38,014 nt of DNA from a virus (taxonomy: Duplodnaviria > Heunggongvirae > Uroviricota > Caudoviricetes), in IMG/VR virus record IMGVR_UViG_2718218361_000004. One strand, given 5' to 3'. Positions 4,266-36,879 of this stretch are shown here, piece by piece. The number at the start of each line of letters is the position of its first letter. The first letter of the stretch is position 1. The position numbers were made by a program, and so were the translations under genes. Below the pieces are notes generated by a model. That model had not been told where the DNA came from. It saw only the letters and a program-made list of their open reading frames with translations, and did no database searches.

Positions 4266-4747
4266 GACAGCAGCCCTCCCACCGTTTTACTGATATCACT
4301 TAAGGCAGATGTTGCCATGTCCTGCAGATTATTCAGTTGCGTACTGAGATCACCGAACATATCGGACAGGGATTCATCCACCCGTTTGAGCGACAGGGTG
4401 AACTCAATCCGGCGCGGCATACCGTCGCGGAAAAACTCCGTTTTAGTCAGATTCAGTCCCTCAATCACATACATGCCGTAAATCGTGCCGCTGCCTTCAA
4501 TCAGGGGCCATGCTTTTCCCTGTTCTGCCATCTGCTCCAGAGCCAGCAACGACAGCCTGCCGCCCGTTATCTCCGGCATAAGAACACCAGAAAGCGTCAG
4601 CATGTCGTTGTCCGGTCCCAGAAACTGCGTGGACGGACGACGGTTTACCCGGCTGTTTGCCGCATGTCGCCAGCTGCGTTGATACTGCAGTTCCTGATAC
4701 GGAACGGTGCGCAGCATAAACACGTACAATCCCAGCACCATCATCAT
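4262..4747 (-). CDS. tail protein gpU
   Basis: 161-aa ORF overlapping D by 4 nt, the position and size of P2 U. Confidence 0.8.
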   Translation of the reverse strand: MMMVLGLYVFMLRTVPYQELQYQRSWRHAANSRVNRRPSTQFLGPDNDMLTLSGVLMPEITGGRLSLLALEQMAEQGKAWPLIEGSGTIYGMYVIEGLNLTKTEFFRDGMPRRIEFTLSLKRVDESLSDMFGDLSTQLNNLQDMATSALSDISKTVGGLLS

Positions 4748-7700
4748 GCGTCGTATCCCCCCTGATCGCTGTAGTTACTCCTGGCTTTTGCCTTCAGCCT
4801 GCGTTCACGTTCATCAAGCTGGCGTGCCACCTCCCGCGCAATATCCTGCGCACTTTGTCCTGGCTGCGTCTGAATGATGATCTGCGTCGGTGCCTCAATC
4901 CGGTGAACGGGCGGCACAGTGGCTGCACGACTCACCATCGCTTCGCCGCCTTTCGCGGGAAGTGCCAAAGGATGCAACGGTGGAAGCTCTGCAGGCGCGG
5001 CAGCAACGCCCATCATTCCGGCAACAACGGCAGCCAGTGCAGCTGTATTTCTCCGGCTGGTCACATTTGCCGGGCCGTTAACAATTTCCGGCCCGTTTTC
5101 ACCGACGATGCCAAACTGCCCGCGCGGGATATAGCCGCCGCTGTCATACATCCCCGCAAAGCCATATCCCCATGACGGAAAATCACCCGATGGCATCATC
5201 ACTTTACCGTCTGCATTCACCGTCGCAGGTTGCTGACGCGTCACGCTTTCCGGTAGTTTTGCCTTTGCGGCCTCTTTACTGACAATGCCGAGTTTCTCCA
5301 GCAACCAGGAAACGCCTGATTTCAGGGAGTCCAGCGGATGCATGACCATATTCAGCCCTTCCGCCAGTGCCTCCCCGAATCGTCGCCCCATTGCCGCTGC
5401 GCTCTGCAGTTCGGCAGAGGTCGACTTAACAGGCGTCAGCAGATCAGTAAACCAGCCCCACAGCGCCTGTACTTTGTCGCCAATCCACTGGAACACGGGC
5501 TTAAGCGGTTCGAATGCTGCACTGACGGGACCTGCCGCCACTTTGAATCCTTCCACCACACCAGCGAGAAATGCGGTGATGGGTTGCCAGTATTTCCAGA
5601 CAACCAGCGCCACGCCCGCCAGTGCAGTAACCACAAGACCTATCGGACTGAGCAGAGCACCTAACAGACCAGATATGGCATACAGGGCAACGCGCAGCAT
5701 CGCCAGTGGACCAGATGCCAGTACTCGCAGCACCGTACCTGCGGCGGTCAGTCCACCGCGCAGTACTGCCAGAGGATTCATAAACATCACAGCAACCGCA
5801 CGTAAACCGGATAATCCAGACCGCAAAAGTGCAACTGGCGCACCTGCTACAGTTTTCAGGACATTTCCCGTCAGTGATGCCGTGCGGCGCAAAGACGACA
5901 ACGGCGCAGTAAGTAAACCTGCGGCGTTGCCCGATGAAGCAAGCCCGCGTCGCAGCAGTGCCAGTGGTGCGCCAGCCAACCAGGACAACGCGTTGCTGGT
6001 TCGGGTTACTGCTGCCGTAACGGAAGGTAACGTTTTGATACCCAGCACAGAGAATCCCAGACGGATGACTGCCAGCGGCCCCAGCACTGCAGCCAGCGCC
6101 ACCGCTAAGGTGCCGAGGCCCACGGTAACGGCAGCCACCACAGCGGCTACTTTCATCAGAGTGCCCGTCAGTTCCGGGTTAGCTTCCACCCAGCGACGCA
6201 ACGCCCCCGTGACGCTTTTCACCGTGTACAGAATATCCATCAGCGGCTGGCGCAGCGTTTCGCCCAGGCTGCTGAAGGTATTCTGCGCTCCGGTTTTAAC
6301 CAGCAACCACTGAGCAGAAAGTGAGTCCTTGTTGATGTCGGATTCTTTCTGCATGGAACCGAGCGCATCATTGCCCGCTGTCAGTTTTAGCTGGCGCTGT
6401 AGTTCCGGCAGGTTGTTTGCCAGTTTCGCCGCGTCATCGCCAAACTCTTTACCAAACAACATGGTCATGGCAGACAGACGCTTGTCCTGCGGCAGTGCGT
6501 TCACCTTCTCCAGCACGCGCTGGATGGTTCCCATCGCATCCTTCGTCATCTGCTTTTCAATCACTTCAGGATTGAGTTTCAGCAGATTCATCCCTTCAAA
6601 AAAACTCTTGCTTTGCATGGTGGCAATGGACAATTCACGCACCATCGCGTTTGCTGCACTGGCTGCAACCTCCGGCGCAGCGCCCAGTGTCAGGAAGGTG
6701 GAACCCAGCGCCGCCGCTTTACGATAATCGAGACGGTCAGCCACACCGCCCAGGCGTTGCATCACATCAATGATGTCCGCCCCTTTCGACATGGCGTTAT
6801 CATCCAGATAGTTCAGCGCATCACCGAGCTGTTCAATATTGCGGGTAGGTATTTTGTAGAGCTGGGCGATTTTCCCCAGACTTTCTGACAGTTCATCCGC
6901 TGGCAGCTCAAAGGCTGTTGCCGCCTTTGCCGCCGTGCTGGCGAAGGCCAGCAGGTCACGTTTCTGGTCTTCCCAACTGTCGTCAGGGTTTGCAACGTTC
7001 ATACGCGCACCACCTTCAACCAGTGCAGCGAAGTCCACCGCACCGTTTTCCATCGGCAACTGTTCGCTGGCAGCTTTGATGGCATCCTGCATTTCATAAA
7101 AACGTGCAGTACGGTTGCCATTATCGTCACGCAGACCATTGACCTGCTTTGCCACACCTTTCATGGCATCTTCCATGCTGGTATAGCTTTTTACTGCCGC
7201 CATCACTGGCGTCCCCATTGCCAGCCCTGCAGCCGTGGTGGTGGCTCCGGCTCCTGCGATGCGATCGCGCACCTCCAGCGAACGGGCATAACTGGCACGC
7301 GCTGCATTCATCCTGCGCTGAGCTTCCCCCAGTCGCTTCAGCCGCGCCTCCTGTTTCGAAAGTTCCTGGTTATAACGTGATGTTTCACGGGCTAAACGGG
7401 CAGTTGCTCCCGCATCATCTTTCGCAGAAATTCCCGCCCGGTACAGTTCAGCACGCACAAGCGCCGTTTGCTTCTGCAAATATTTTTGTTGTTCTTCCAG
7501 GCGTTGGACTGCCAGCGTTTGCCGACCTAAAGCCACAAGATGCCTTTGTGATGGTTGCTCCATCGCCTCCAGCTCAGAGCTAAGCAAATTAGCCTTCTGT
7601 CTGGCATAGTTCAGCCTGTCGCCTAACTTCTTGTTATCAGCCTGCAGCTTGCGAAATTTTTCCAGGCTGTTACCCGCCTGATTGAGTTGCTTTAATGCGT

Positions 7701-7821
7701 CACGGGAGTTTCTGATTGCGCCAGCCAGCTCTTTCGAACTGGCCTGTGCAGCACGGAATGGGCGGGTGAGTTTGTCAACCGCATTAAGAATGACCTGCAG
7801 GCGCAGGTTGTTATCACTCAT
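4744..7821 (-). CDS. tail tape measure protein gpT
   Basis: 1025-aa Ala/Gly-rich ORF with coiled-coil N-terminal half and hydrophobic repeats, immediately downstream of E/E'. Confidence 0.88.
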   Translation of the reverse strand: MSDNNLRLQVILNAVDKLTRPFRAAQASSKELAGAIRNSRDALKQLNQAGNSLEKFRKLQADNKKLGDRLNYARQKANLLSSELEAMEQPSQRHLVALGRQTLAVQRLEEQQKYLQKQTALVRAELYRAGISAKDDAGATARLARETSRYNQELSKQEARLKRLGEAQRRMNAARASYARSLEVRDRIAGAGATTTAAGLAMGTPVMAAVKSYTSMEDAMKGVAKQVNGLRDDNGNRTARFYEMQDAIKAASEQLPMENGAVDFAALVEGGARMNVANPDDSWEDQKRDLLAFASTAAKAATAFELPADELSESLGKIAQLYKIPTRNIEQLGDALNYLDDNAMSKGADIIDVMQRLGGVADRLDYRKAAALGSTFLTLGAAPEVAASAANAMVRELSIATMQSKSFFEGMNLLKLNPEVIEKQMTKDAMGTIQRVLEKVNALPQDKRLSAMTMLFGKEFGDDAAKLANNLPELQRQLKLTAGNDALGSMQKESDINKDSLSAQWLLVKTGAQNTFSSLGETLRQPLMDILYTVKSVTGALRRWVEANPELTGTLMKVAAVVAAVTVGLGTLAVALAAVLGPLAVIRLGFSVLGIKTLPSVTAAVTRTSNALSWLAGAPLALLRRGLASSGNAAGLLTAPLSSLRRTASLTGNVLKTVAGAPVALLRSGLSGLRAVAVMFMNPLAVLRGGLTAAGTVLRVLASGPLAMLRVALYAISGLLGALLSPIGLVVTALAGVALVVWKYWQPITAFLAGVVEGFKVAAGPVSAAFEPLKPVFQWIGDKVQALWGWFTDLLTPVKSTSAELQSAAAMGRRFGEALAEGLNMVMHPLDSLKSGVSWLLEKLGIVSKEAAKAKLPESVTRQQPATVNADGKVMMPSGDFPSWGYGFAGMYDSGGYIPRGQFGIVGENGPEIVNGPANVTSRRNTAALAAVVAGMMGVAAAPAELPPLHPLALPAKGGEAMVSRAATVPPVHRIEAPTQIIIQTQPGQSAQDIAREVARQLDERERRLKAKARSNYSDQGGYDA

Positions 7822-8250
7822 CGTTGGCCCCGCATCTCTGGATCGCTTTATACCGCCATTCCAGCACTTCGGTCAGCGGCATAACGTCAGTAACGGATGG
7901 CGGCCAGTGAAAAATGGTGGCGATATCTGCCACCAGATCGTCAACCGTCAGGCTGTCGGTAAACCGGCAAGCACCGACTTCTTCAACAAAAAAGTGACAA
8001 CCTCAACCGACATGGCTGTGAGATCTGCCGGGTCCATCTCTGCGATTTCCTGTGCAGTCAGTGCCGGACTGGAGATGCGGGGGATCACGGTCATCATCGC
8101 GTTCACATCCATATCCATAATGGCCTGCAGGCGTGTGCCGCGCAGCGCACCAGACTGCGGTTTACGCAACACAATTTCGGTAATTTCTGTTTTACCGCGC
8201 ATGATGGGGGTATCCAGTTGAATGGTCTTTTCAGTCTGTTTATCGCTCAT
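7814..8250 (-). CDS. gpE+E' fusion made by programmed -1 frameshift at TTTTTTG (minus-strand 7987-7993)
   Basis: The -1 frame stays open from the slippery site to a TGA at 7814-7816 that overlaps the T start codon (ATG 7819-7821). This gives about 146 aa, comparable to P2 E+E'. Confidence 0.65.
7948..8250 (-). CDS. tail assembly chaperone gpE
   Basis: 100-aa ORF between FII and T; ends ...EVVTFLLKKSVLAGLPTA with the slippery heptamer T TTT TTG in frame. Confidence 0.8.
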   Translation of the reverse strand: MSDKQTEKTIQLDTPIMRGKTEITEIVLRKPQSGALRGTRLQAIMDMDVNAMMTVIPRISSPALTAQEIAEMDPADLTAMSVEVVTFLLKKSVLAGLPTA

Positions 8251-8304
8251 TTTGTTGTCCTGTAAATTAGGTTCTGGCGCGGCATTCCGCGCCGTTCAGA
8301 TACA

Positions 8305-8820
8305 TCAGAGGCCGAGGGCGTTGCGGTGCGCTTCCATCAGGTCCACACCGTCCACAATTTCCACCATGTTGATAAGGTCCACTTCATAGAGCACCTCACC
8401 ATTGATGGTCAGCTTCGCGTAGCTGTTGGTACTGGTCACTTTGGTGGTGTTGCTTTCGCCCGTCTTCCACTCGCCGGAATCCACTTCTTTGTGACGTCCA
8501 CGCACGACAAGCTCCACGGCCTGCACTTCCCCGGTATCGTCACGCTGGATAGAGCCGGTAAAGCGCAGCTGGATGCCATCCACCGTGGATTTGCCCATCT
8601 GCTTAAACAGCAGCAGTTCAGTACCACCAATGGAAAATTCTGTATCCAGTGCACTGTCATCCAGTCCCAGATCCACATCCACCGCCCCCGGCATACCGCC
8701 GCCGCGATACTTCTCATATTTGCGGGTGAATTTCGGCAGCGTCAGCGACTCAACGATCCCCTGCCAGTTGTTCCCGTCGTTAAACAAGTTCAGATGTTTT
8801 AATTTACGTGGTAAAGCCAT
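8305..8820 (-). CDS. tail tube protein gpFII
   Basis: 171-aa ORF downstream of FI, matching P2 FII in size and order. Confidence 0.85.
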   Translation of the reverse strand: MALPRKLKHLNLFNDGNNWQGIVESLTLPKFTRKYEKYRGGGMPGAVDVDLGLDDSALDTEFSIGGTELLLFKQMGKSTVDGIQLRFTGSIQRDDTGEVQAVELVVRGRHKEVDSGEWKTGESNTTKVTSTNSYAKLTINGEVLYEVDLINMVEIVDGVDLMEAHRNALGL

Positions 8821-8829
8821 GTTGTCCCC

Positions 8830-10002
8830 TTACGCGCTGACCTGGCTGGCGAAATTCACCAGGTACTGATCGGTGATGCGCTGGCGCAGCATCAGATTTT
8901 CAAGTGGCGGCACTGGCGTGTAGTCATAGTCGATGGTGAGTTTTCCGGCTTTCAGCGTGTCTTTGTCGTTCACCGACTCATCCAGCCAGCAATCACCACC
9001 AATGAGATAGCCCTGACTGACCAGGCTGCGCATTTTGGCGCGGATACCTTCGATAATGTCGCGGGCCAGCGACGGGTTAAGCGGTTTATCCACCGCCCAC
9101 ATGTGTGCTTCTGCCATCGTGTCCATCAGCACCTGCGCCGTGCGGGTGTAGTTTTCGAAGGCAAAGAGCGGGTCATCACTCAGGCTGCGGGAACCCCAGA
9201 AGCGGAAACCGTCTTTACGCACAAGCGTGGTGACGTCGTTCTGGTTAAGCAGTCCCGCATCGGTTGCCGGGTCCTGCAGATCCCAGAACACATCAGCAGA
9301 AATTCCGGTGACACCGTTCACGCCCACGTTGGACAGGCTTTTGTGCCATCCGGTCTGCTCGTCAATTTTGGCGCGCAGACCAAGCGCACGGGCGGTGGCA
9401 TATGCCGTTGCTTCGGCATTCAGCACCGTGTCCCAGCCAGTAAAGTCGGGCCAGATCAGCATCCCTTCGCGCTGGCTGAAGTTTTCGCGGTAAGTGATCG
9501 CCTCCTGCACTGTCTTGCAGCCATACGCTGACAGGTAAGCAAACCCACGCAGGCTTTGCGCCACGCTCAGCAACTCAGTCGCAACGGCTTTGTTATCGTG
9601 ACCAGGTACGCCGAGAATGCGCGGTTTAACGCCGAGCTGTGTCTGGGCAGATAACAGGGCTTTCATGCCTGTTTTTTTACCTTCAGCAGTCACTGCGCCG
9701 ATGATATTGGTCGTGGTTTCTTCTTCCGTTTCCCCCTGCGGCACACGCACAACAACGGTCACGGGTTTTGCCTGGTCAGCGATGGCATCCAGCGAACGGG
9801 CCAGCGTGCCGGACTCACCCGCTTTACCGCTGGCAGTCAGCACATCAGTGATCAGCACGGGTTTATTAAGAGGAAACATTTTTGCATCGGCATCATCGCC
9901 CGTGCAGACCATACCCACGATGGCGGTGCTCACCGTGGTAATGGATCGGGTGCCTTCGTTGACTTCAACAACGCGCACCCCGTGGTGGTAATCCTGAGCC
10001 AT
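8830..10002 (-). CDS. contractile tail sheath protein gpFI
   Basis: 390-aa ORF at the head of the FI-FII-E-T-U-D operon. Confidence 0.88.
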
Positions 10003-10144: not shown

Positions 10145-10711
10145 TCAGGGGGATTCATTGCTCTTATTTGCCGGAAATTTTCTATAAATTGTGGAAACAC
10201 CCACATCAAAAATCAGTGCAATACGCTGTCTTGATTCTCCGGCCTCGAGTAAGCGTCCAATCTGTGCCCACTGTTCTGTGGTCAACTTAGGACGGCGTCC
10301 ACCTACTCTGCCTTTGGCGCGAGCTGCAGCCAGCCCCGCCCTGGTACGTTCAACTATCAGTTCGCGTTCCATTTCAGCCAGGGCACCCATGACATGAAAA
10401 AAGAAACGGCCCATTGGGGTGCTGGTATCAATACTGTCAGTCAGGCTTCGGAAATTCACACCACGCTGGCGCAACTCTTCTATCAGCGTAACAAGATGCC
10501 GCATACTGCGCCCCAACCTGTCCAGCTTCCAGACAACCAGCGTGTCTCCTGCCGTTAGTGTCCTGAGCAGTTTTTTCAGCCCTGGTCTGTCGGACTTTGT
10601 GCCACTGATTTTGTCCTCAAAAATCCGCTCACATCCCGCGCAGTTCAGTGCATTACGTTGCAAATCGGTGTTCTGGTCATTTGTTGACACGCGTACATAG
10701 CCAATAAGCAT
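10145..10711 (-). CDS. serine DNA invertase (Hin/Gin/Pin/Cin family)
   Basis: N-terminus MLIGYVRVSTNDQNTDLQRNAL with the catalytic Ser motif and a C-terminal HTH (GVSTIYRKF). ATG at 10711 preceded by GGGGG; directly abuts the invertible segment. Confidence 0.9.
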   Translation of the reverse strand: MLIGYVRVSTNDQNTDLQRNALNCAGCERIFEDKISGTKSDRPGLKKLLRTLTAGDTLVVWKLDRLGRSMRHLVTLIEELRQRGVNFRSLTDSIDTSTPMGRFFFHVMGALAEMERELIVERTRAGLAAARAKGRVGGRRPKLTTEQWAQIGRLLEAGESRQRIALIFDVGVSTIYRKFPANKSNESP

Positions 10712-10778
10712 GATCATCCCCCTGAATAAAAACCGGGGATGATGCCAGTTAGCCATTATCTCTGCATTTTCATAAACG

Positions 10779-10812
10779 TTGGTTTGGGAGAAGCGGCAAA
10801 ACGGAATGTAGG
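10779..10812. repeat. left inverted repeat with hix/gix-like recombination site
   Basis: 34-bp stretch ttggtttgggagaagcggcaaaacggaatgtagg is the exact reverse complement of 12326-12359; the adjacent cccAAACCAACGTTTat resembles a hix/gix half-site. Confidence 0.75.
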
Positions 10813-11152
10813 AACAGGGGAAAATCAGATACCGGACATGACCTCTTTTGCCAGTGGTGATGGATGGATGAAATTACCCAACGGGAAAATCCTGCAATAT
10901 GGTCGTGGTGCGATTACGCCGACATTATCGACGCAAACAATGAGAATTACATTCAGCATCCCTTTTCCTAAAGAAGTGGACTGCGCCATGCTTACCCATT
11001 CTGGTGATGGTGGTGCGCCTTTAGGCGCTGGACGGGGATTCGTGATGACTGCAGAAGGTCCAACACTAACCGGTTTTAATTCCGCTTACAGAACTGCATC
11101 AACCAGCTCCACAGTATCGATGAATTACAGTTGGTGGGCTGTTGGTGAGTAA
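10781..11152 (+). CDS. alternative tail-fibre C-terminal exon, silent in the present orientation
   Basis: Begins inside the inverted repeat in frame with [18 protein letters not shown], the same peptide found in gpH at its repeat. The upstream part of the track ORF (10739-10780) lies outside the segment and is probably not translated. Confidence 0.7.
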
Positions 11153-11172
11153 TTTTATTCAGGGTGATTTAT

Positions 11173-11616
11173 ATGAACGAATATGTTTATAGCGCAAGGC
11201 ATAATGCTTTTTTCCCTGTGGATATGATTGATAAATATAAATCAGAGGGATGGGATTTATCAGACGCAAAGGAAGTAAATCAAAATATTATCAGTGAATT
11301 TATGGCTGAACCGCCACAAGGAAAAATCCGTATTGCCGGAGATGATGGGCTGCCTGCGTGGGCAGATATTCCTCCACCCACGCATGAAGAGCTTATTGAA
11401 ATTACTGAATCAGAAAAACAGCTACTAATTAACCAGGCTAACGAATACATGAACAGTAAGCAATGGCCTGGCAAAGCAGCTATTGGTCGTCTGAAAGGTG
11501 AGGAACTGGCGCAATATAATTTGTGGCTGGATTACCTGGACGCACTGGAACTGGTGGATACCTCCAGTGCTCCAGATATTGAATGGCCTACACCTCCGGT
11601 AACTCAGGCCAGCTAA
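11173..11616 (+). CDS. tail-fibre assembly protein, alternative copy (Tfa')
   Basis: 147 aa from the ATG at 11173; C-terminal motif VDTSSAPDIEWPTPP shared with the convergent Tfa. Confidence 0.75.
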   Translation: MNEYVYSARHNAFFPVDMIDKYKSEGWDLSDAKEVNQNIISEFMAEPPQGKIRIAGDDGLPAWADIPPPTHEELIEITESEKQLLINQANEYMNSKQWPGKAAIGRLKGEELAQYNLWLDYLDALELVDTSSAPDIEWPTPPVTQAS

Positions 11617-11983
11617 TCTCAGGAGCCGTCGAAGTGTCGACGGCTTTTACTTCTTTTTTGTAGTCCATCCAGGCAGATAGTTTTTCTTTATCTGTACTGC
11701 TGATATCACCAAGCATTAATTCCACCCGCCAGTCAGCTGTGACATTATCGGCATGAGCAAGTAACTGCATTCGCTGATTTTCAGCACGTGCGACATAATC
11801 AATCGCCGGAGATTTCAGTACCGGTAAACCATTTTCATCTGACGTGATTAATTTACCCCCTTCCTGCTGTCCGGCAATTAATTCATTGTATAAGTCTGTA
11901 CTTATCTCAACAATGTCAGCAGGCATGTCGCTGTTTATACCATCAAAGAAAAAACCATTAGTCGATTTTGAGAAATAAATCAT
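11588..11983 (-). CDS. tail-fibre assembly protein (gpG-like Tfa), active orientation
   Basis: ATG at 11983 with an AGGT Shine-Dalgarno, 9 nt after the gpH stop; C-terminus VDTSTAPEISWPELP. Confidence 0.78.
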   Translation of the reverse strand: MIYFSKSTNGFFFDGINSDMPADIVEISTDLYNELIAGQQEGGKLITSDENGLPVLKSPAIDYVARAENQRMQLLAHADNVTADWRVELMLGDISSTDKEKLSAWMDYKKEVKAVDTSTAPEISWPELPEV

Positions 11984-11991
11984 AGATATAC

Positions 11992-13407
11992 CTATACACC
12001 GATTGCTACCCAAAAACAGGACCTTTCATATTTGACAATTTCTCCCTGAGATATACCGCCAACAATTATATAGAACTGTGATTTGCTGATATCAGAACAG
12101 TTCGCTATGCCCATTGCAGATATACCAGCCACCGACGTTGTATGTGGCACAGCCAACAGCGCAAGTGAACGATTTGGGAATGTTACCGGGTAAGTCACCG
12201 TATAGTTTGATGCTCCACTGACAATACCCCACTGAATAATCAGACCTGAAGGAAGTTTTTGAAAACCCGTTGATGAAAGTGAACTGGCAAATGCCGCCAT
12301 ATCCGGAATTTGGTTTTGCCCGTTACCTACATTCCGTTTTGCCGCTTCTCCCAAACCAAGGTATGCGAGAAGACCAGCTACATCCTTTCCACTCAAATTA
12401 GTCAGCGTATTGTCCAGCGGTTGTTTACCTGCCAGCGCATTAAGCATTGTCGTGGCAAAGTTCGGATCATTCCCCAGCGCCGCCGCCAGTTCGTTCAGTG
12501 TATCCAGTGCAGCAGGTGCAGAGCCTACCATTGCTGCAATCGCCGATTTCACAAAAGCCGTGGTGGCAATCTGTGTATTGTTGACCGACTGTGCCGCAGT
12601 AGGTGCTGTTGGCGTTCCGGTAAGTGCCGGACTCGACAACGGCGCTTTCAGTGCCAGCGCATTGTTAATGGTGGTGCTGAATTTCGGGTCATTGTTTATG
12701 GCTGCGGCTATTTCTTTCAGCGTGTCCAGCGTGGCTGGCGCACCATTAATAACGGCCTTCAGTGCCGCCTGAACAAACGCGGTGGTCGCAAGTTGCGTGG
12801 TATTATTCCCCGCCGCTGGCGTTGGCGCTTTGGGGGTTCCGGTAAATGTTGGGCTGGCTTTTGGCGCATACTGTGAATGTGGATCTGGTGCGGCAAGGTG
12901 TTTTGCCATCAGATCATCCACGTACACCTTCAGCTCCAGTGCCTTGTCATCCACATACTTGCGGGTTGCCAGCACTATGGCAGGATCGATTTTCAAGGTG
13001 ATATTGTCCGTGCTGCTGGTAATCAGCACCATGCGCACGGTCTGGGTGCGCCCGCTGCCTTCAGCCAGTTGCGGCTTATAGCTTTCCGGGCAGTTGCCCA
13101 CGGCAATCAATGCCCCTGACTCATCAAACAGGCCCACTTCACGTATCCACCAACCGCCCTCGTTTTCAGGGATCACCTGTTCAGCAATAATCTGGCTGCT
13201 GTTCTGCGGGTCGATATAGAGCATATTCAGCGCAGCCCGGCGTTTCTCATTTACCAGTGCAGTCTGCTTTGCGTCCGGCGTCGGCAATGCTCCGCCGCCA
13301 TCGCCCACCGCCATATGGGTAATTTTTAGCGGCACACCGAGCGCGGCGGCGCTGGCAAGTTTCGCCGCGCCAATATCCGTCAGCAGGGTATAAAATTTTG
13401 TGCTCAT
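11992..13407 (-). CDS. tail fibre protein gpH (constant N-terminal part plus currently attached variable C-terminus)
   Basis: 471-aa ORF with Ala/Thr-rich repeats; crosses the right inverted repeat at 12326-12359, so the C-terminal ~110 aa are invertible. Confidence 0.88.
   Translation of the reverse strand: MSTKFYTLLTDIGAAKLASAAALGVPLKITHMAVGDGGGALPTPDAKQTALVNEKRRAALNMLYIDPQNSSQIIAEQVIPENEGGWWIREVGLFDESGALIAVGNCPESYKPQLAEGSGRTQTVRMVLITSSTDNITLKIDPAIVLATRKYVDDKALELKVYVDDLMAKHLAAPDPHSQYAPKASPTFTGTPKAPTPAAGNNTTQLATTAFVQAALKAVINGAPATLDTLKEIAAAINNDPKFSTTINNALALKAPLSSPALTGTPTAPTAAQSVNNTQIATTAFVKSAIAAMVGSAPAALDTLNELAAALGNDPNFATTMLNALAGKQPLDNTLTNLSGKDVAGLLAYLGLGEAAKRNVGNGQNQIPDMAAFASSLSSTGFQKLPSGLIIQWGIVSGASNYTVTYPVTFPNRSLALLAVPHTTSVAGISAMGIANCSDISKSQFYIIVGGISQGEIVKYERSCFWVAIGV
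12326..12359. repeat. right inverted repeat with hix/gix-like recombination site
   Basis: Reverse complement of 10779-10812; the adjacent tctcccAAACCAAGGTatgc resembles a hix half-site. Confidence 0.75.
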
Positions 13408-15954: not shown

Positions 15955-17007
15955 TCATTCAAAATTAATAATGTCGGAAAATATATCCTGCATTAAACAA
16001 GAAATATCAATAAGAGTTTTTTCCTTAATAGGATCAGAGATCTCCAAGGACTTTATCACGAACAATATTCGTTCAGCTGCTGGTAAATAGTGAGATGGAT
16101 CAGACGTTTCAATTGCCGAAAAAAATATAGCTATTCCAGCAATCGCAAGAATCATCAGAATACCTTCACCTTCACATATAATGGACGCAATCCTAATCCC
16201 CCATTTGTCAGCCTCCTTCTCAACCTCTGATTCAACTAAATCAGGCTGCTGATGATTCATCATGGCATGAGAATATTCATGAGCGGCTACGAATAACTCA
16301 CAGCCAAAGACCATATTATATATAATCTTTTGCCCTACAGGACAGAAGTTAATTATCGATGTATAAGCAAGTTCACCACGTACATTGTAATTCTTAAAAA
16401 AATCCCTCCATTCGTTTAAGTCAATCTTGCTTTGTAATAAAGCGCTTCTATTCTTCTCACTACTCAAATATTTTTCCCACTCTGACCGCCACTCTTTTTC
16501 ACTACTACCTTGCAGAAGAGTATTAGGATAACTGCTAACAAACAAACTAATTACACCATGAATAAATTGAAAAATCCCAGACTCAAAAATTGTGAAAACC
16601 TTTGACTTTCCGTCTAGGCATTTAACTGGCGCGGCAAGTGCACTAACTCTGCCGGTTGGAGCACAACAAAACCCACCATAGTTTTGGTGATCAAAAGGAA
16701 ATATCTTTGCTACTAATTCAACCTTACTCATCAAGCGAGATGCAATGCTATAACTCACACGATCATCATAGATTGTTGGAAGAGTAACTACACCTTGAAT
16801 ATTGTTTGATAACTCTTCAATACAATCAGAAGGTAAATTATCCATTTTATTACGCACATAAGAAAAACCCTCATCACTATTTAATGACTGAGCCAACTGA
16901 TCCTCTTTATATACCTGAGTGCCTAGACTATTCTTTATAATATACTCTTCAATATATCTTTCTAGTTTTTTATAATCATCATTATATTCAGACATTAATT
17001 TAATCAT
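15955..17007 (-). CDS. AT-rich cargo protein with C-terminal HExxH metallopeptidase-like motif (ImmA/IrrE-like pattern)
   Basis: 350-aa ORF in a visibly AT-rich island between V and S. Carries HEYSHAMMNH followed by E-x-E-K-E-A-D-K-W and a hydrophobic stretch ILMILAIAGIAIFF; the N-terminal ~250 aa are unrecognised. Confidence 0.6.
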   Translation of the reverse strand: MIKLMSEYNDDYKKLERYIEEYIIKNSLGTQVYKEDQLAQSLNSDEGFSYVRNKMDNLPSDCIEELSNNIQGVVTLPTIYDDRVSYSIASRLMSKVELVAKIFPFDHQNYGGFCCAPTGRVSALAAPVKCLDGKSKVFTIFESGIFQFIHGVISLFVSSYPNTLLQGSSEKEWRSEWEKYLSSEKNRSALLQSKIDLNEWRDFFKNYNVRGELAYTSIINFCPVGQKIIYNMVFGCELFVAAHEYSHAMMNHQQPDLVESEVEKEADKWGIRIASIICEGEGILMILAIAGIAIFFSAIETSDPSHYLPAAERILFVIKSLEISDPIKEKTLIDISCLMQDIFSDIINFE

Positions 17008-25570: not shown

Positions 25571-26266
25571 TTAAAATTTAGCAAGCTCCATATAAGAAAT
25601 AGCATCATTAAAGACCGACACATGTTCTTCAGGAATTATTGCCGAGGCTCCACTAGTTAGTTCAAAGCTAAATTTAGAGTCATGATATAGCCCCCCAACT
25701 TTTATTTTATCGAGTTTAAAATCATTATCCAAAACAAATTTTTTCAAATCATTTAAAGCATCTCCACTAGAATTCAGCTCTAAACACGCCCTTGTTTTAT
25801 CAGTAACAGGAACATTTGAAACTTTCACCTTTGAGATGGCGAAGACTTTGACTCCAAACTCCTCCCTAATTATTTTCATAAAAGCCTTGAGATCTACCGT
25901 CAAGTTTCCATAGGCAACATTTACCCCTTCACCTTTTGACAAGAAATCAATAAAAGACTTAACTGTCTTCGGAGGATTATAAAAAGTCAACAAACATAAT
26001 TTATTACTTAATGTTTGGATAGAAAAACCAATCTGTTCAAAAACAATCCTTTCGAACTCTAAAATATCACCAAATGGATCAGAAACTGGCTCCAACATTA
26101 TAGTTTTTTTATTAAAAGTCGCAGATATTCCATTGTGAATAGTTTCAAACTTAGTAAAACCAGCACCAATAGCATCAGAATAAGGGGTGTTTTTGATAAA
26201 ATCAAAGATCGCTTCAGAACTGGTTCTGATCTTTAATCTCATCCACTTTAATCTTAACTGTGACAT
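25571..26266 (-). CDS. cargo operon gene C, hypothetical protein
   Basis: 231 aa from the ATG at 26266 with AAGGAG 5 nt upstream; AT-rich; no recognisable motif by eye. Confidence 0.7.
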   Translation of the reverse strand: MSQLRLKWMRLKIRTSSEAIFDFIKNTPYSDAIGAGFTKFETIHNGISATFNKKTIMLEPVSDPFGDILEFERIVFEQIGFSIQTLSNKLCLLTFYNPPKTVKSFIDFLSKGEGVNVAYGNLTVDLKAFMKIIREEFGVKVFAISKVKVSNVPVTDKTRACLELNSSGDALNDLKKFVLDNDFKLDKIKVGGLYHDSKFSFELTSGASAIIPEEHVSVFNDAISYMELAKF

Positions 26267-26285
26267 ATCCACTCCTTATGATGAA

Positions 26286-27350
26286 TTAGCTAATTTCCAT
26301 TATAATAGAATAAGCTCTATTTTCAATTAATTTATTAAATCTATCGGTTTCTCTAGCTGAAAGCTTTTGAGGTTTACTGAAATATTGACCGTTAGACTTA
26401 TATTTTTTCACTCCTTTTACTAAATATGAAAAATTAGTACAGTTTAGTGGATCTCCGAATTGAGCTTCGAGTTCATAAATATCTGGGTCTGCTAGTTTCT
26501 CTTTAACCTTCCATTTTATTTTCCAGATATAAAAGCCCCTATCATAAAGATCACTAAGTTCATCAGATTTAAGAACTCCCTCTCCTTTCAGAGATGCTTT
26601 TGACACATGAACTCCAGTTTCAGTATTTCCCTCTTCTGCTTCTATTGTTTCAGGTTTTGGATGATATACATAAGCATCCGTAACATCGTCTAATTCATAT
26701 CCATCTAGGCTACGGATTAATTTATCGAAAAACAGTGTCCTAACATCTGCGGAGCTATTATGAGCAAGAGTAATTTCGTTTAATTTTAAATCAAGATTAC
26801 TGTCATTATCTTGTTCACTCTGAATCGAAATTATATGCCCGAGGAGGAGATCTTCATAATCTTTGAGATTCTCGTTATCGGGACGACGGATGCTATAACC
26901 TTTATCAATAGGCTCGATTTCAATTAAAGCTTCTTTATTTACAGCCTGCTTAAAATCGCTTTTACTATAATTGGTCGATAGATATCTTATATCTATAAGA
27001 ACTCGAGAACCATCAATAATAATTTTACAATAATCATCCTGAGCAGTTATTTCTTTTTTTAACTTCTCTGCTGCCACTATGATATCGTCCTTAGTGACAC
27101 TGGATTCAATTCTTACACATGTATTTTTTTCAGCTCTTGTCTGACCTCCGAGTAATGTTGCTATCTTCTGATGTTCATAATAATCATGAGTCATCCGAGA
27201 GTAGTTTTTGGCTAGATCTTTTCTAGGGGTTTTTTTACAAATAATAGTACCTCTTTCCAAGAAAAGATCCTGTATTTCATTTAATGTAATCTGCTTTTGA
27301 TTCAAAGCATCACATAAAGCCTTGTCAGTTACACTATGAATATTTTTCAT
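26286..27350 (-). CDS. cargo operon gene B, hypothetical acidic protein
   Basis: 354 aa from the ATG at 27350 with a GGGAG Shine-Dalgarno; its ATG overlaps the stop of gene A (ATGA). Confidence 0.7.
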   Translation of the reverse strand: MKNIHSVTDKALCDALNQKQITLNEIQDLFLERGTIICKKTPRKDLAKNYSRMTHDYYEHQKIATLLGGQTRAEKNTCVRIESSVTKDDIIVAAEKLKKEITAQDDYCKIIIDGSRVLIDIRYLSTNYSKSDFKQAVNKEALIEIEPIDKGYSIRRPDNENLKDYEDLLLGHIISIQSEQDNDSNLDLKLNEITLAHNSSADVRTLFFDKLIRSLDGYELDDVTDAYVYHPKPETIEAEEGNTETGVHVSKASLKGEGVLKSDELSDLYDRGFYIWKIKWKVKEKLADPDIYELEAQFGDPLNCTNFSYLVKGVKKYKSNGQYFSKPQKLSARETDRFNKLIENRAYSIIMEIS

Positions 27351-28411
27351 TTCGGCTCCCAAGAAATAACCTCAGAAGAAAAGAATTCTTTTACAGTAGA
27401 GACAACTTTGACATCCAGATCTTCAAGTCTCTTTTTAGCCTCTTCATCCAGTCCATACTCATGAACATACTTTTCGATCCCACGCTGAAAATGCGACATA
27501 ACTCTATTATCTTTCTCACGATACGCCAATCTTATTCTAATTTTATTTATACCATCTAAAATTTGATAATTAGAAAGCAAGTCTAGCAAATAAAAGAATT
27601 CATTATCGCTATTACCTTTTCTATTGTAATATATAACAAATCCCTCTGGATAAACCATTTCCTCAATACCTTTAGCCCTATTGAATTTATAAACAGGACC
27701 ATGTTTAATAATCATAAATGGTGATAACAAAACTTCAATAGTTGCAGGAAGGTATTTTTCAGTTACAGCAACCTTATGGAAAATAAGTTGAGGATAATAG
27801 AATCCATAATCCTCATCTGGAAATTCTTTTTTTGCAATTAAGTCATTCATATCATTCGTTACTGCCAACATATAATTAATAAGAAATGGATCAATTATAT
27901 GAATTTGCTGACCAGCACATAACGGAATCTTTTCTAAGTTTACAGCCTTATCTCTCCTTCCTTTAGTAGGTTTAGGAGGATTAAAGAAATCATAAAAATC
28001 ATGTTGCAATTGATTATCATGATTAAAAACAAATAATAAACCTCGAACTTCGAAATCAATTTGAGAAAAGTTATATTTTTCTGACCATTCCTGGCTATAT
28101 CGAGCACAATCAATTGTTTTTGCTAAAGACTCTAATGCAGACTCTATCTTTGTTGCATTAATAGAACCAGCCTTATAACTTTTCAAATCAGTATTTAAAT
28201 AAATAATTTTATTTAAATATGGATCTTTATAACTAAATACCACATCCACTGGGTGTGTGTGCTTTTGTTTTTTACCTTCAGGCTTATGTTTTGTTTCATT
28301 ATCACAAGAGAAATCTTGGTCACAGGGGCCATGCTGTTGCCACTTAAAACGACTCATAAGATCGTTAGAAATGCGTTTTGCTAAGTCTTCAATAGGGCCA
28401 TTCTCTGCCAT
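27347..28411 (-). CDS. cargo operon gene A, hypothetical protein
   Basis: 354 aa with AAGGA Shine-Dalgarno. The N-terminal region has a possible PD-(D/E)xK-like arrangement (PVDVVF…NTDLKSYK), which is an inference only. Confidence 0.7.
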   Translation of the reverse strand: MAENGPIEDLAKRISNDLMSRFKWQQHGPCDQDFSCDNETKHKPEGKKQKHTHPVDVVFSYKDPYLNKIIYLNTDLKSYKAGSINATKIESALESLAKTIDCARYSQEWSEKYNFSQIDFEVRGLLFVFNHDNQLQHDFYDFFNPPKPTKGRRDKAVNLEKIPLCAGQQIHIIDPFLINYMLAVTNDMNDLIAKKEFPDEDYGFYYPQLIFHKVAVTEKYLPATIEVLLSPFMIIKHGPVYKFNRAKGIEEMVYPEGFVIYYNRKGNSDNEFFYLLDLLSNYQILDGINKIRIRLAYREKDNRVMSHFQRGIEKYVHEYGLDEEAKKRLEDLDVKVVSTVKEFFSSEVISWEPK

Positions 28412-35536: not shown

Positions 35537-35547
35537 GGTTGCTTCAT

Positions 35548-36879
35548 ATGAATAATGATATGACTTTTGAAAACAGAGATGAGTATAATAGAAAAATCAT
35601 TGCTGAAAAAATAATAAGCTTACTCGAGTCCCCCTTAAAAATATCCCCTATTGTTATCGATGGGGACTGGGGTACCGGTAAAACCGAATTTTCAAAAAAA
35701 TTAGCGGCATTGATTGAAAAAAATGAATCTGGGCATAAAGTAGTATATATTGATGCATTTACTGAAGATCATAATGATGCTCCCATACTTACTATAATGG
35801 CTGCAATAGTTGCATTATATCCAGAGAGTGAAAAGAAGGAATTAATATCAAAGGCATTACCAGCATTGAGATTTGGACTTAAAACTGTACTCAAAGCTGG
35901 CGCTGGGTGGATTTTAAAACAAAATGCAGATGATATTGCGGATGAATTCGAAGATGCTATTAAAGATGCGGCTAACTCAGCTATAGATGGTACTGTAGAA
36001 GCACTGCTTGATGATCATATTGAAGCAAAGAAACATTTGCTTGCTCTCAAGGAAGTACTTGCTGAACTAACTAGCGAAAATAAAATAACAATTATCATTG
36101 ACGAACTTGACCGTTGTAAACCAAGCTTTGCCATCTCTATCATCGAAAATATAAAACATGTTTTTGACACTGAAAATCTTAACTTCTTGTTAGTTGCTAA
36201 CATCTCACAATTGAAAGCATCAATAAATCATATTTACGGTGCAGGTGTTGACTCAGAAAGATATCTTGATAAATTTATAAAATTCACTTACAGCCTGCCA
36301 GTGACTTTCACTGAAAACAATTACGATAAAATTTTGGCTTCGAACTCTCATTTTAGAATGCTATGTAACGAGTCTGAAAGACTAAAAGAAATTGGAGAAA
36401 GTAGTATTCATATAGTTCAAAAATTTATCGAACTAAAAGGCTTGTCGCTACGGGAAGTTGAAACCTTATCAAGATATCTAGAAATTTATCAAATTTTATC
36501 TCAAAATAAAATCAGCAATAAATTTATACCAGGCTATTGCTGTTATCGAACCCTTGCAGTAATTCTTTATTCGTTTGGTCGTGAACTGGCCCTTAACTAC
36601 GTAGAAGATAAAATAGATGCACAATTAATAATCAATTTCTTCGGTGTTAATAGACTCCCATATCAGACAGATCAATATAACAACAACATCTACTATTATG
36701 CATTATTTGGTATAACTTATAAATATATGCCAGAAGGTTCTCCTTTACTTCCTTCTGAAAACGATGAAAAAAACAGATGGGCTGAAATAAGTGATTATCA
36801 TATTTTAAAAGGAAATGCAGGTGTAGAAGACCCTGTTAGAATATTCAAAAACACCTTAAAAGTTTTCTTGCTCCAATGA
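35548..36879 (+). CDS. KAP-family P-loop NTPase
   Basis: Walker A GDWGTGKT and KAP-type Walker B IIIDELDRC; no obvious transmembrane insert; 11 nt after the small ORF; AT-rich. Confidence 0.8.
   Translation: MNNDMTFENRDEYNRKIIAEKIISLLESPLKISPIVIDGDWGTGKTEFSKKLAALIEKNESGHKVVYIDAFTEDHNDAPILTIMAAIVALYPESEKKELISKALPALRFGLKTVLKAGAGWILKQNADDIADEFEDAIKDAANSAIDGTVEALLDDHIEAKKHLLALKEVLAELTSENKITIIIDELDRCKPSFAISIIENIKHVFDTENLNFLLVANISQLKASINHIYGAGVDSERYLDKFIKFTYSLPVTFTENNYDKILASNSHFRMLCNESERLKEIGESSIHIVQKFIELKGLSLREVETLSRYLEIYQILSQNKISNKFIPGYCCYRTLAVILYSFGRELALNYVEDKIDAQLIINFFGVNRLPYQTDQYNNNIYYYALFGITYKYMPEGSPLLPSENDEKNRWAEISDYHILKGNAGVEDPVRIFKNTLKVFLLQ

What the first reader, a model, noticed from the sequence alone, without database searches (positions are those of the whole stretch)
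7814..8250. Programmed -1 ribosomal frameshift producing E and E+E' tail chaperones
The E ORF carries the slippery heptamer T TTT TTG (minus strand 7987-7993) in the correct X XXY YYZ phase. The -1 frame then stays open for about 58 codons and stops on a TGA that overlaps the tape-measure start codon. This matches the conserved G/GT-type frameshift ahead of tape measure genes and is not captured by ordinary ORF calling.
Basis: partly seen in the sequence, partly recalled or inferred. Interest (0 to 1): 0.5.

Follow-up and report, generated by a model that had tools for sequence, protein, structure and literature searches.

The report
P2-type tail chaperone E/E+E' frameshift
This is the well-known programmed -1 ribosomal frameshift that lets P2-like phages make two tail-assembly proteins (E and E+E') from one start codon, here in an ordinary E. 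coli prophage that standard annotation splits into two separate genes.

Summary
On the minus strand, gene E (8250..7948, 100 aa, Pfam Phage_TAC_7) carries T TTT TTG at 7993..7987 in X XXY YYZ phase. After a -1 slip the frame stays open for 57 codons, to TGA 7816..7814, 8 nt inside the tape-measure gene T (ATG 7821).

The heptamer and open frame are not beyond chance on their own. The decisive evidence is this:
- The -1 peptide matches Pfam PF06528 (Phage_P2_GpE, the E' part) over the full model, E=2e-17.
- The conceptual fusion (145 aa) aligns without gaps across the junction to P2 gpE+E' (47% identity, E=2e-49).
- P2 and Wphi records annotate the same TTTTTTG as the -1 frameshift site.
- 17 relatives from 11 host genera, including all 13 outside the window's own lineage, keep an in-phase slippery heptamer 3-66 nt before the E stop and a 51-71 aa E' extension.
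- Substitution periodicity switches from frame 0 to frame -1 after the E stop, and the overlap zone is depleted of variation.

I found no significant downstream RNA structure or upstream SD-like stimulator. The window is a complete P2-like prophage. This region is 100% identical to E. coli S21 and present in 997 of 5426 complete E. coli genomes. The feature is already known and of low interest. The only practical point is that PGAP mis-models E' as a 39-aa GTG-initiated CDS.

The parts
7948..8250 (-). Gene E (zero frame), 100 aa plus TGA stop; tail assembly protein, homologue of P2 gpE
   Evidence: ORF list. Pfam PF10109 Phage_TAC_7 E=2.4e-18 and PHROG 103 E=8e-44. PGAP names the identical sequence 'phage tail assembly protein' in E. 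coli S21.
7987..7993 (-). Slippery heptamer T TTT TTG in X XXY YYZ phase (E codons 86-88: ACT TTT TTG)
   Evidence: Sequence reading. It is the only in-phase XXXYYYZ in E. P2 and Wphi annotate the same heptamer as the -1 frameshift site. It is invariant in 58 of 59 unique close relatives; one has TTTTTTA.
7814..7987 (-). E' : -1 frame extension, 57 sense codons (GTT 7987..7985 onward) plus TGA 7816..7814
   Evidence: Translation. Pfam PF06528 Phage_P2_GpE E=2e-17 over profile 1-37/37; PHROG 1756 and 6416. Substitutions fall on position 3 of the -1 frame, 18 of 31 variable columns.
7814..8250 (-). Composite E+E' coding region (8250..7987 joined to 7987..7814), predicted 145-aa fusion ...VEVVTFL|VEEVGACRF...
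   Evidence: Gapless BLASTP alignment to P2 gpE+E' across the junction: 66/141 identical, E=2e-49.
7951..7986 (-). 36-nt dual-coding zone (E C-terminal tail in frame 0, E' N-terminal part in frame -1)
   Evidence: Variable columns are 11% here against about 25% in the flanking single-frame zones. Frame-0 third positions vary at 1 of 12 sites against 48 of 84 in E proper (Fisher p=0.0016).
8003..8005 (-). TGA stop in the -1 frame 9 nt upstream of the heptamer; no ATG/GTG/TTG in the -1 frame between it and GTG 7933
   Evidence: The conserved E' residues VEEVGACRFTDSLTVDDL can only be reached by shifting from E.
7814..7933 (-). The 39-aa 'GpE family phage tail protein' CDS as modelled by PGAP and several phage records (GTG 7933..7931); judged an annotation artefact covering only the C-terminal part of E'
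   Evidence: PGAP annotation of the identical sequence. RE2010, Cartapus and others are annotated the same way. It has the weakest SD complementarity of the tail genes, -2.5 kcal/mol.
4744..7821 (-). Gene T, tail tape measure protein (1025 aa); its start ATGAGTGA contains the E' stop
   Evidence: ORF list. Pfam PhageMin_Tail E=2e-18. PGAP names it 'phage tail tape measure protein'.
8305..8820 (-). Gene FII, tail tube protein (context: upstream neighbour of E)
   Evidence: Pfam Phage_tube E=1e-59.
8830..10002 (-). Gene FI, tail sheath protein (context: first gene of the FI-FII-E-T-U-D operon)
   Evidence: Pfam Phage_sheath_1 and Phage_sheath_1C.

Best explanation
This is the E/E+E' programmed -1 ribosomal frameshift of a P2-like (Peduoviridae) prophage. 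All ribosomes start at ATG 8250 on the FI-FII-E-T-U-D late tail-operon mRNA.

Most ribosomes read frame 0 to TGA 7948 and make the 100-aa protein E. A minority slip. This happens when tRNA-Phe occupies the P site on UUU (7992-7990) and tRNA-Leu occupies the A site on UUG (7989-7987). Both tRNAs move back one base, to UUU/UUU. The ribosome then reads GUU 7987-7985 and continues for 57 codons to TGA 7814, giving the 145-aa protein E+E'.

The minority is about 10% in P2 according to my recollection of Christie et al. 2002. The Atkins review states that the efficiency is 2-3 fold higher than in lambda.

By analogy with lambda gpG/gpGT, the shared E part would bind the tape-measure protein T. The E' domain would recruit the tube protein FII, and the fixed E:E+E' ratio would be needed for correct tail assembly.

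What is shown here is the sequence anatomy, the homology of both parts, the conservation across the family and the coding signature in both frames. What is inferred is that the fusion is actually made in this prophage, its frequency, and the chaperone roles.
For: - The heptamer is in exact phase and the -1 frame is open to a stop inside the T start.
- E matches Phage_TAC_7 (2e-18). The -1 extension matches Phage_P2_GpE at 2e-17 over the full profile, and PHROG tail families.
- The fusion aligns to P2 gpE+E' without gaps, 47% identity, E=2e-49.
- GenBank records for P2 (AF063097) and Wphi carry a joined E+E' CDS and a 'site of -1 translational frameshift' feature at the homologous TTTTTTG.
- All 17 relatives examined have an in-phase slippery heptamer 3-66 nt before the E stop and a 51-71 aa -1 extension carrying the ADIAxIFHW...EL..WRE+A motif. 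Thirteen lie outside the window's own lineage, with E identity down to about 29% and hosts Escherichia, Salmonella, Yersinia, Klebsiella, Ralstonia, Burkholderia, Pseudomonas, Shewanella, Aeromonas, Vibrio, Mannheimia and Zymomonas. The heptamers are TTTTTTG, TTTTTTC/T/A, GGGAAAG and AAATTTT.
- In 59 unique close relatives the -1 frame is never interrupted. Third-position bias switches from frame 0 (48 of 65 variable columns) to frame -1 (18 of 31). Synonymous/nonsynonymous changes in the E'-only zone are 19/13 in frame -1 against 7/27 and 4/28 in the other frames. The overlap zone is depleted of variation.
- There is no start codon in the -1 frame upstream of GTG 7933, and that GTG has the poorest SD of the tail genes.
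- Literature: PMC3091744 describes the P2 TTTTTTG frameshift giving E (91 aa) and E+E' (142 aa) and its conservation in Burkholderia phages. PMC5009743 reviews lambda G/GT and notes P2.
Against: - There is no direct protein or reporter evidence for this prophage.
- No significant stimulatory element was detected. The downstream fold has z=-1.49 (114 nt) and z=-1.03 (48 nt), and no structure is conserved across relatives. This matches what the literature reports for P2 rather than contradicting it.
- The heptamer alone is not statistically unusual in this window.
- At the position of GTG 7933 many relatives have Met or Val, so some independent initiation cannot be formally excluded.
Confidence: 0.93

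Rival explanations
1. E' is an independent small gene. A 39-aa protein is initiated at GTG 7933..7931, as PGAP and several phage records model it, and no frameshift is needed.
For: PGAP annotates the identical E. coli sequence this way, as do the RE2010, MLG42, Cartapus, phiCTX and SEN1 records. Many relatives have Met or Val at the aligned position.
Against: - The 20 nt upstream of the GTG have the weakest anti-SD complementarity of all tail-gene starts: -2.5 kcal/mol against -4.0 to -11.0.
- The 18 residues of the -1 frame upstream of the GTG are conserved with P2 (VEEVGACRFTDSLTVDDL against VAELGAVTFPKNLSVDDL) and are part of a gapless alignment. No start codon can reach them.
- The overlap zone shows dual-coding constraint, p=0.0016.
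- RSA1, VibMAR, AhyVDH1 and PHL101 have Ala, Trp, Glu or Ile, not a start codon, at that position, yet keep the in-phase heptamer and an open -1 frame.
- To my recollection of Christie et al. 2002 (paper not held), fusion polypeptides in P2 showed that E' is translated as an extension of E.
Confidence: 0.04
2. The fusion arises by transcriptional slippage. RNA polymerase adds one extra U at the T6 run, and normal translation of the edited mRNA then gives E+E'.
For: The site is a homopolymeric run of six T, and one inserted U would put E' in frame. Transcriptional slippage is a known alternative route to frameshifted products in bacteria and phages (reviewed in PMC5009743).
Against: - Six residues is shorter than the runs that, to my knowledge, support efficient slippage by bacterial RNA polymerase (about 8-9 or more).
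- Homologous sites in relatives are G GGA AAG (PHL101) and A AAT TTT (P88), with runs of only 3-4. These fit tandem tRNA slippage but not polymerase stuttering.
- The strict X XXY YYZ phasing in all 17 relatives is a requirement of ribosomal slippage, not of transcriptional slippage.
Confidence: 0.02
3. The arrangement is chance or a relic. The heptamer and open -1 frame are fortuitous, and only E is made in this prophage.
For: TTTTTTG is not enriched in the window (18 observed against 13.9 expected). Mechanically similar configurations occur at 8 of 148 ORFs.
Against: The full-length Pfam match of the -1 peptide (E=2e-17), the purifying-selection signature in the -1 frame, and zero interrupted -1 frames in 59 unique relatives. 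The prophage is otherwise complete, from integrase to ogr.
Confidence: 0.01

Closest known systems
Bacteriophage P2 gpE / gpE+E' programmed -1 frameshift (FI-FII-E-T-U-D operon; Christie et al. 2002, J Bacteriol 184:6522, cited in PMC3091744 and PMC5009743)
   Same: - Same heptamer TTTTTTG in the same phase.
- Same gene order: sheath, tube, E, E', T.
- Same E' length of 57 aa after the slip.
- Same overlap of the E' stop with ATGAGTxA at the T start.
- 47% identity over the whole fusion with no gap at the junction.
   Different: - E is 100 aa here against 91 aa in P2.
- The zero-frame tail after the heptamer is 36 nt here against 18 nt in P2.
- The fusion is 145 aa here against 142 aa in P2.
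- The phage belongs to a different genus-level lineage; its closest records are Elveevirus Cartapus / Klebsiella phage 4LV2017 and Felsduovirus RE2010.
Escherichia phage Cartapus, Klebsiella phage 4LV2017 and Kp48xx prophages, Salmonella phage RE-2010, and the E. coli S21/H14 prophage at ybjL
   Same: Near-identical or identical DNA: 97% to the Klebsiella phages, E 99% to Cartapus, and 100% to E. coli S21/H14 over 7780-8280. The heptamer and E' are identical in kind.
   Different: Nothing of substance differs. Those records annotate E' as a separate 39-aa CDS rather than a joined CDS.
Phage lambda gpG / gpGT tail assembly chaperone frameshift (Levin 1993; Xu, Hendrix and Duda 2004, 2013, 2014, as reviewed in PMC5009743)
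   Same: Same logic and same position. Two ORFs between the major tail (tube) gene and the tape-measure gene are joined by a low-frequency -1 slip at an X XXY YYZ heptamer near the end of the first ORF. This gives a fixed ratio of short and long proteins, neither of which is in the virion.
   Different: - The protein families differ: Phage_TAC_7 and Phage_P2_GpE here, with no lambda gpG/gpT Pfam match.
- The lambda heptamer is G GGA AAG (my knowledge).
- Efficiency is reported as 2-3 fold higher in P2-like phages.
- This is a contractile-tail phage, whereas lambda is a siphovirus.
E. coli dnaX -1 frameshift (A AAA AAG with an upstream SD-like element and a downstream hairpin)
   Same: Tandem -1 slippage on an X XXY YYZ heptamer in E. 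coli. An SD-like GAGGT lies 6 nt upstream here.
   Different: There is no significant downstream hairpin. The SD-like motif is explained by the E-V-V amino-acid sequence under a synonymous-codon null, P=0.39 for the window. Its spacing is shorter than the 10 nt of dnaX (my knowledge).

Membership tests
P2-type E/E+E' programmed -1 frameshift (Peduoviridae tail operon) | The upstream ORF is a homologue of gpE (Pfam Phage_TAC_7) | tested here: met
   PF10109 E=2.4e-18, 66 bits against a cutoff of 25. 42.5% identity to P2 E by tblastn.
P2-type E/E+E' programmed -1 frameshift (Peduoviridae tail operon) | Located between the tail tube gene (FII) and the tape-measure gene (T), within sheath-tube-E-T-U-D synteny | tested here: met
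   Pfam assignments for FI, FII, T, U and D and the PGAP gene table for identical DNA.
P2-type E/E+E' programmed -1 frameshift (Peduoviridae tail operon) | Slippery heptamer (TTTTTTG in P2) in X XXY YYZ phase near the 3' end of E | tested here: met
   T TTT TTG at 7993..7987, 36 nt before the E stop. P2 and Wphi have the same motif, annotated as the shift site.
P2-type E/E+E' programmed -1 frameshift (Peduoviridae tail operon) | The -1 ORF encodes a homologue of E' (Pfam Phage_P2_GpE) and aligns colinearly with gpE+E' through the junction | tested here: met
   PF06528 E=2e-17, profile 1-37/37. Gapless BLASTP alignment to P2 gpE+E', E=2e-49.
P2-type E/E+E' programmed -1 frameshift (Peduoviridae tail operon) | The -1 ORF lacks its own credible initiation site | tested here: met
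   No ATG/GTG/TTG between the upstream -1 stop (8005..8003) and GTG 7933. That GTG has the weakest anti-SD pairing of the tail genes, -2.5 kcal/mol.
P2-type E/E+E' programmed -1 frameshift (Peduoviridae tail operon) | Both frames are under purifying selection (dual coding in the overlap, frame switch after the E stop) | tested here: met
   Codon-position and synonymous/nonsynonymous counts in 59 unique relatives. Fisher p=0.0016 for depletion of frame-0 third-position variation in the overlap.
P2-type E/E+E' programmed -1 frameshift (Peduoviridae tail operon) | The fusion polypeptide is actually produced at a set frequency and E' is essential for tail assembly | not testable with these tools
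   This needs protein analysis, reporter assays or genetics. It is established for P2 only, in the literature cited.
Lambda gpG/gpGT-type tail assembly chaperone frameshift (general class, Xu et al. 2004) | Two overlapping ORFs between the major tail gene and the tape-measure gene, joined by a -1 slip at a heptamer near the end of the first | tested here: met
   The class is described in PMC5009743 and PMC3091744.
Lambda gpG/gpGT-type tail assembly chaperone frameshift (general class, Xu et al. 2004) | The short and long products bind the tape measure, the extension binds the tube protein, and neither is in the virion | not testable with these tools
   This is a biochemical property. It is inferred by analogy only.
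dnaX-type stimulated -1 frameshift | A downstream stimulatory hairpin or pseudoknot 5-9 nt after the heptamer | tested here: not met
   A local hairpin starts 8 nt downstream (-13.5 kcal/mol), but z=-1.03 and 14% of shuffles fold as well. z ranges from -2.3 to +1.05 across 16 loci, with no common structure. The literature reports none for P2.
dnaX-type stimulated -1 frameshift | An upstream SD-like element selected beyond coding constraints | tested here: inconclusive
   The 22 nt upstream hold the best anti-SD match within E in 9 of 16 loci. Under a synonymous-codon null the window has P=0.39, and the combined P is 0.065 with non-independent loci.

The most novel reading that the evidence does not exclude
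The SD-like sequence upstream of the heptamer may act as a weak rRNA-pairing stimulator. It is GAGGT in the window and (A/G)AGGTG(G/A) in P2, 186-like, Ralstonia, Aeromonas and Pseudomonas relatives, about 4-8 nt upstream. This would help explain why P2-type E/E' frameshifting is reported to be 2-3 fold more efficient than lambda G/GT despite having no downstream structure. My synonymous-codon test does not support selection for it in this window (P=0.39) and is only marginal family-wide (P=0.065), so this is not excluded but is unlikely.
Probability: 0.12. Interest if true: 0.3.

Novelty: already known. Interest (0 to 1): 0.08.

Why it matters
Scientifically it adds nothing new. The P2 E/E+E' frameshift was demonstrated in 2002, and the general tail-chaperone frameshift is a textbook example of recoding.

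The practical value is for annotation. The identical locus occurs in 997 of 5426 complete E. coli genomes. RefSeq/PGAP and many phage records model it as an E CDS plus a spurious 39-aa GTG-initiated 'GpE family' CDS, with no ribosomal-slippage join. The real 145-aa product is therefore absent from protein databases for this lineage. Correct modelling matters for proteomics searches, for engineering P2-like tails or tailocins, and as clean training or benchmark data for frameshift predictors.

Tried and rejected
1. Downstream stimulatory RNA structure. I folded 114 nt (z=-1.49) and 48 nt after the heptamer in 16 loci (z from -2.3 to +1.05, no shared hairpin). I rejected it as not above chance, which agrees with the literature statement that P2 has none.
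2. Upstream SD-like stimulator. It looked striking at first: the strongest anti-SD match in the E ORF in 9 of 16 loci. A synonymous-codon resampling null shows that the E/K-V-V amino acids largely explain it (window P=0.39, combined 0.065). I kept it only as a low-probability novel reading.
3. Statistical enrichment of the heptamer or of the heptamer-plus-open-frame pattern. Neither is significant on its own, so I relied on homology and comparative evidence instead.
4. NCBIfam gave no hit for E or E+E'. A PDB sequence search gave no solved homologue at E<=1.
5. The primary paper, Christie et al. 2002 (PMC135442), is not held. I used secondary citations and marked my own recollection as such.
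6. The first related-loci scan returned only near-identical loci. These were useful for the substitution test but not for diversity. Diversity came from tblastn against the phage records plus 17 annotated regions.
7. My first two translations were in the wrong register. Searches are the correct ones.
8. I did not run structure prediction or the large protein searches. The answer did not depend on them.
Full report
**Observation**

On the minus strand the window carries, in order:
- a tail sheath gene (10002..8830)
- a tail tube gene (8820..8305)
- a 100-aa ORF, E (8250..7948)
- a 1025-aa tape-measure gene, T (7821..4744)
- the U and D homologues

These come from the ORF list and Pfam assignments.

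Reading the sequence directly, E codons 86-88 are ACT TTT TTG. T TTT TTG at 7993..7987 is therefore in exact X XXY YYZ phase, and it is the only in-phase XXXYYYZ heptamer in E.

The -1 frame read from 7993 is FFVEEVGACRFTDSLTVDDLVADIATIFHWPPSVTDVMPLTEVLEWRYKAIQRCGANDE*. That is 57 sense codons after the slip, ending at TGA 7816..7814.

Two details need correcting:
- The TGA lies in ATGAGTGA over T codons 2-3, not over the ATG (7821..7819). The overlap of E' with T is 8 nt.
- 'About 58 codons' is 57, or 59 if the two re-read Phe codons are counted.

**Is it more than chance?**

Not on pattern alone. TTTTTTG occurs 18 times in the window against 13.9 ± 3.2 expected. A mechanical scan finds 8 of 148 ORFs of at least 60 aa with an in-phase heptamer in their last 80 nt followed by at least 50 open -1 codons, mostly spurious ORFs nested in real genes. 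The case rests on what the -1 frame encodes and on how it evolves.

**What the two frames encode**

- E matches Pfam Phage_TAC_7 ('tail assembly chaperone proteins E, 41 or 14') at 2.4e-18.
- In the conceptual fusion, residues 107-143 match Pfam PF06528 Phage_P2_GpE over the whole 37-position profile at 2e-17.
- PHROGs gives tail families 103 (E part) and 1756/6416 (E' part).
- The 145-aa fusion, E residues 1-88 plus 57 residues of E', aligns to P2 gpE+E' over 141 residues with 47% identity, E=2e-49 and no gap. The junction reads VVTFLVEEVGA against VVGFLVAELGA.

**Known counterparts**

The P2 GenBank record (AF063097) carries a two-piece E+E' CDS ('shares amino terminus with gpE; -1 frameshift; essential tail protein') and a misc_feature 'site of -1 translational frameshift'. 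The feature sits at the homologous GGT TTT TTG. Wphi is annotated the same way.

PMC3091744 states that in P2 the -1 frameshift occurs at TTTTTTG and yields the 91-aa E and the 142-aa E+E'. It also reports that the site is conserved in Burkholderia P2-like phages and that no downstream structure is found in them or in P2. It cites Christie et al. 2002 and Xu et al. 2004. My reconstruction of P2 (85+57=142 aa) reproduces those lengths.

The Atkins et al. review (PMC5009743) describes the lambda G/GT paradigm:
- gpG and the G part of gpGT bind the tape measure.
- The T domain binds the major tail protein.
- The ratio of the two products is critical.
- Neither protein is in the virion.
- Efficiency is 2-3 fold higher in P2 and its relatives.

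**Comparative test**

I took 17 annotated relatives, 13 of them outside the window's own lineage, with E identity running from 99% down to about 29%. Their hosts are Escherichia, Salmonella, Yersinia, Klebsiella, Ralstonia, Burkholderia, Pseudomonas, Shewanella, Aeromonas, Vibrio, Mannheimia and Zymomonas.

Every one has an in-phase slippery heptamer 3-66 nt before the E stop. TTTTTTG is in 11, TTTTTTC in 2, and TTTTTTT, TTTTTTA, GGGAAAG and AAATTTT in one each.

Every one also has a -1 extension of 51-71 aa carrying a conserved ADIAxIFHW...EL..WRE+A..R motif. Where T abuts, the extension ends at or just inside the T start. In 9 of 16 loci the -1 frame is closed by a stop within 45 nt upstream of the heptamer, so it needs to be open only from the slip site onward.

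The non-homopolymeric variants (G GGA AAG, A AAT TTT) and the strict phasing argue for tandem tRNA slippage rather than RNA polymerase stuttering.

**Evolutionary signature**

I compared 59 unique close relatives (85-99.8% identity, from IMG/VR and phage records).
- None has an interrupted -1 frame.
- The heptamer is invariant except for one TTTTTTA.
- Variable columns fall on frame-0 codon position 3 in E proper (48 of 65) and on frame -1 position 3 after the E stop (18 of 31).
- Distinct codon changes in the E'-only zone are 19 synonymous to 13 nonsynonymous in the -1 frame, against 7:27 and 4:28 in the other two frames.
- In the 36-nt overlap, only 11% of columns vary, against about 25% elsewhere.
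- Frame-0 third positions in the overlap vary at 1 of 12 sites, against 48 of 84 in E proper (Fisher p=0.0016). This is as expected if both frames are translated there.

**Rival: independent initiation of E'**

PGAP annotates the identical E. coli sequence as two CDSs: 'phage tail assembly protein' and a 39-aa 'GpE family phage tail protein' starting at GTG 7933. Several phage records do likewise.

Four points argue against this model:
- The GTG has the weakest anti-SD complementarity of all tail-gene starts (-2.5 kcal/mol).
- No ATG/GTG/TTG exists in the -1 frame between the stop at 8005..8003 and the GTG.
- The 18 residues upstream of the GTG are conserved with P2 and lie in the constrained overlap.
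- Several relatives lack any start codon at that position.

I rate this rival at about 4%, transcriptional slippage at about 2% and chance or relic at about 1%.

**Stimulatory elements**

The 114 nt downstream fold with z=-1.49. A 48-nt window gives a hairpin starting 8 nt after the heptamer at -13.5 kcal/mol, but with z=-1.03. Across 16 loci z ranges from -2.3 to +1.05 with no common structure.

Upstream, GAGGT lies 6 nt before the heptamer. In 9 of 16 loci the 22 nt upstream hold the best anti-SD match in the E ORF. Resampling synonymous codons shows that the E/K-V-V amino acids largely explain this (window P=0.39, combined P=0.065 over non-independent loci). No stimulator is established.

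**Context**

- The region 7780..8280 is 100% identical to E. coli strains S21 and H14. It is found at 80% identity or more in 997 of 5426 complete E. coli genomes.
- The window is a complete P2-like prophage, running from the integrase at the window's 3' end to ogr near 2.9 kb, and it sits next to ybjL/ybjM.
- The closest phage records are Klebsiella phages 4LV2017 and Kp48xx (97%), Escherichia phage Cartapus (E 99%) and, further off, Felsduovirus RE-2010 (85%).

**Verdict**

This is the already-known P2-type E/E+E' programmed -1 ribosomal frameshift in an ordinary, widespread E. coli prophage. Production and frequency of the fusion in this prophage, and the chaperone roles, are inferred by homology with P2 and analogy with lambda. 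Interest is low. The only practical point is the systematic mis-annotation of E' as a free-standing 39-aa gene.

Noticed in passing
window 25571..28411 (- strand; ORFs 27347..28411, 26286..27362, 25571..26272): A three-gene cassette lies between the portal gene (Q) and the replication gene A side, which is the P2 old/tin cargo hotspot. PGAP calls all three 'hypothetical' and none has a Pfam hit. They match PADLOC defence-candidate models Hp1 (1e-64), Hp2 (2e-39) and Hp3 (1e-10). This is probably a prophage-borne anti-phage system.
   Followed up: partly
window 15955..17007 (- strand): A 350-aa ORF sits between the virion-morphogenesis (S-like) gene and baseplate gene V, at the position of P2 orf30. 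It has no Pfam hit and only a weak PADLOC 'peptidase_U41' match (7e-8). PGAP calls it 'hypothetical protein'.
   Followed up: partly
window 10145..12013: A Hin/Cin-type serine invertase (10145..10756, Resolvase plus HTH_7, 3.5e-53) lies beside oppositely oriented tail-fibre C-terminal and tail-fibre-assembly ORFs (10739..11152 +, 11164..11616 +, 11588..12013 -). It looks like an invertible host-range switch at the P2 Z/fun position.
   Followed up: partly
window 4756..4762 (- strand), 9 nt before the T stop: G GGG GGA lies in X XXY YYZ phase at the very end of the tape-measure gene. A -1 slip there would read straight into gene U (ATG 4747) and give a T-U fusion. The G-run is also the Shine-Dalgarno sequence of U, so this is most likely incidental.
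   Followed up: no
window 35539..36879 (+ strand): A KAP-family P-loop NTPase gene sits between the integrase and the CI repressor of the prophage. It is another probable cargo or defence gene (PGAP annotation of the matching E. coli S21 region).
   Followed up: no
window 7814..7933 (- strand) and E. coli S21 L098 20348..20467: RefSeq/PGAP and several phage records model E' as a separate 39-aa GTG-initiated 'GpE family phage tail protein', with no ribosomal-slippage join. This is a systematic annotation gap affecting about 1000 complete E. coli genomes.
   Followed up: yes
L070 (IMGVR_UViG_2778261510_000014), homologue of window 7987..7993: One close relative carries TTTTTTA instead of TTTTTTG. 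It is still a slippery X XXY YYZ heptamer and still encodes Leu in frame 0, so it is a natural variant of the shift site.
   Followed up: no
window 7999..8003 (- strand; GAGGT, 6 nt upstream of the heptamer): An SD-like sequence lies upstream of the slip site. In 9 of 16 family members this stretch is the best anti-SD match in the E ORF. A synonymous-codon null attributes it mainly to the conserved E/K-V-V residues.
   Followed up: yes
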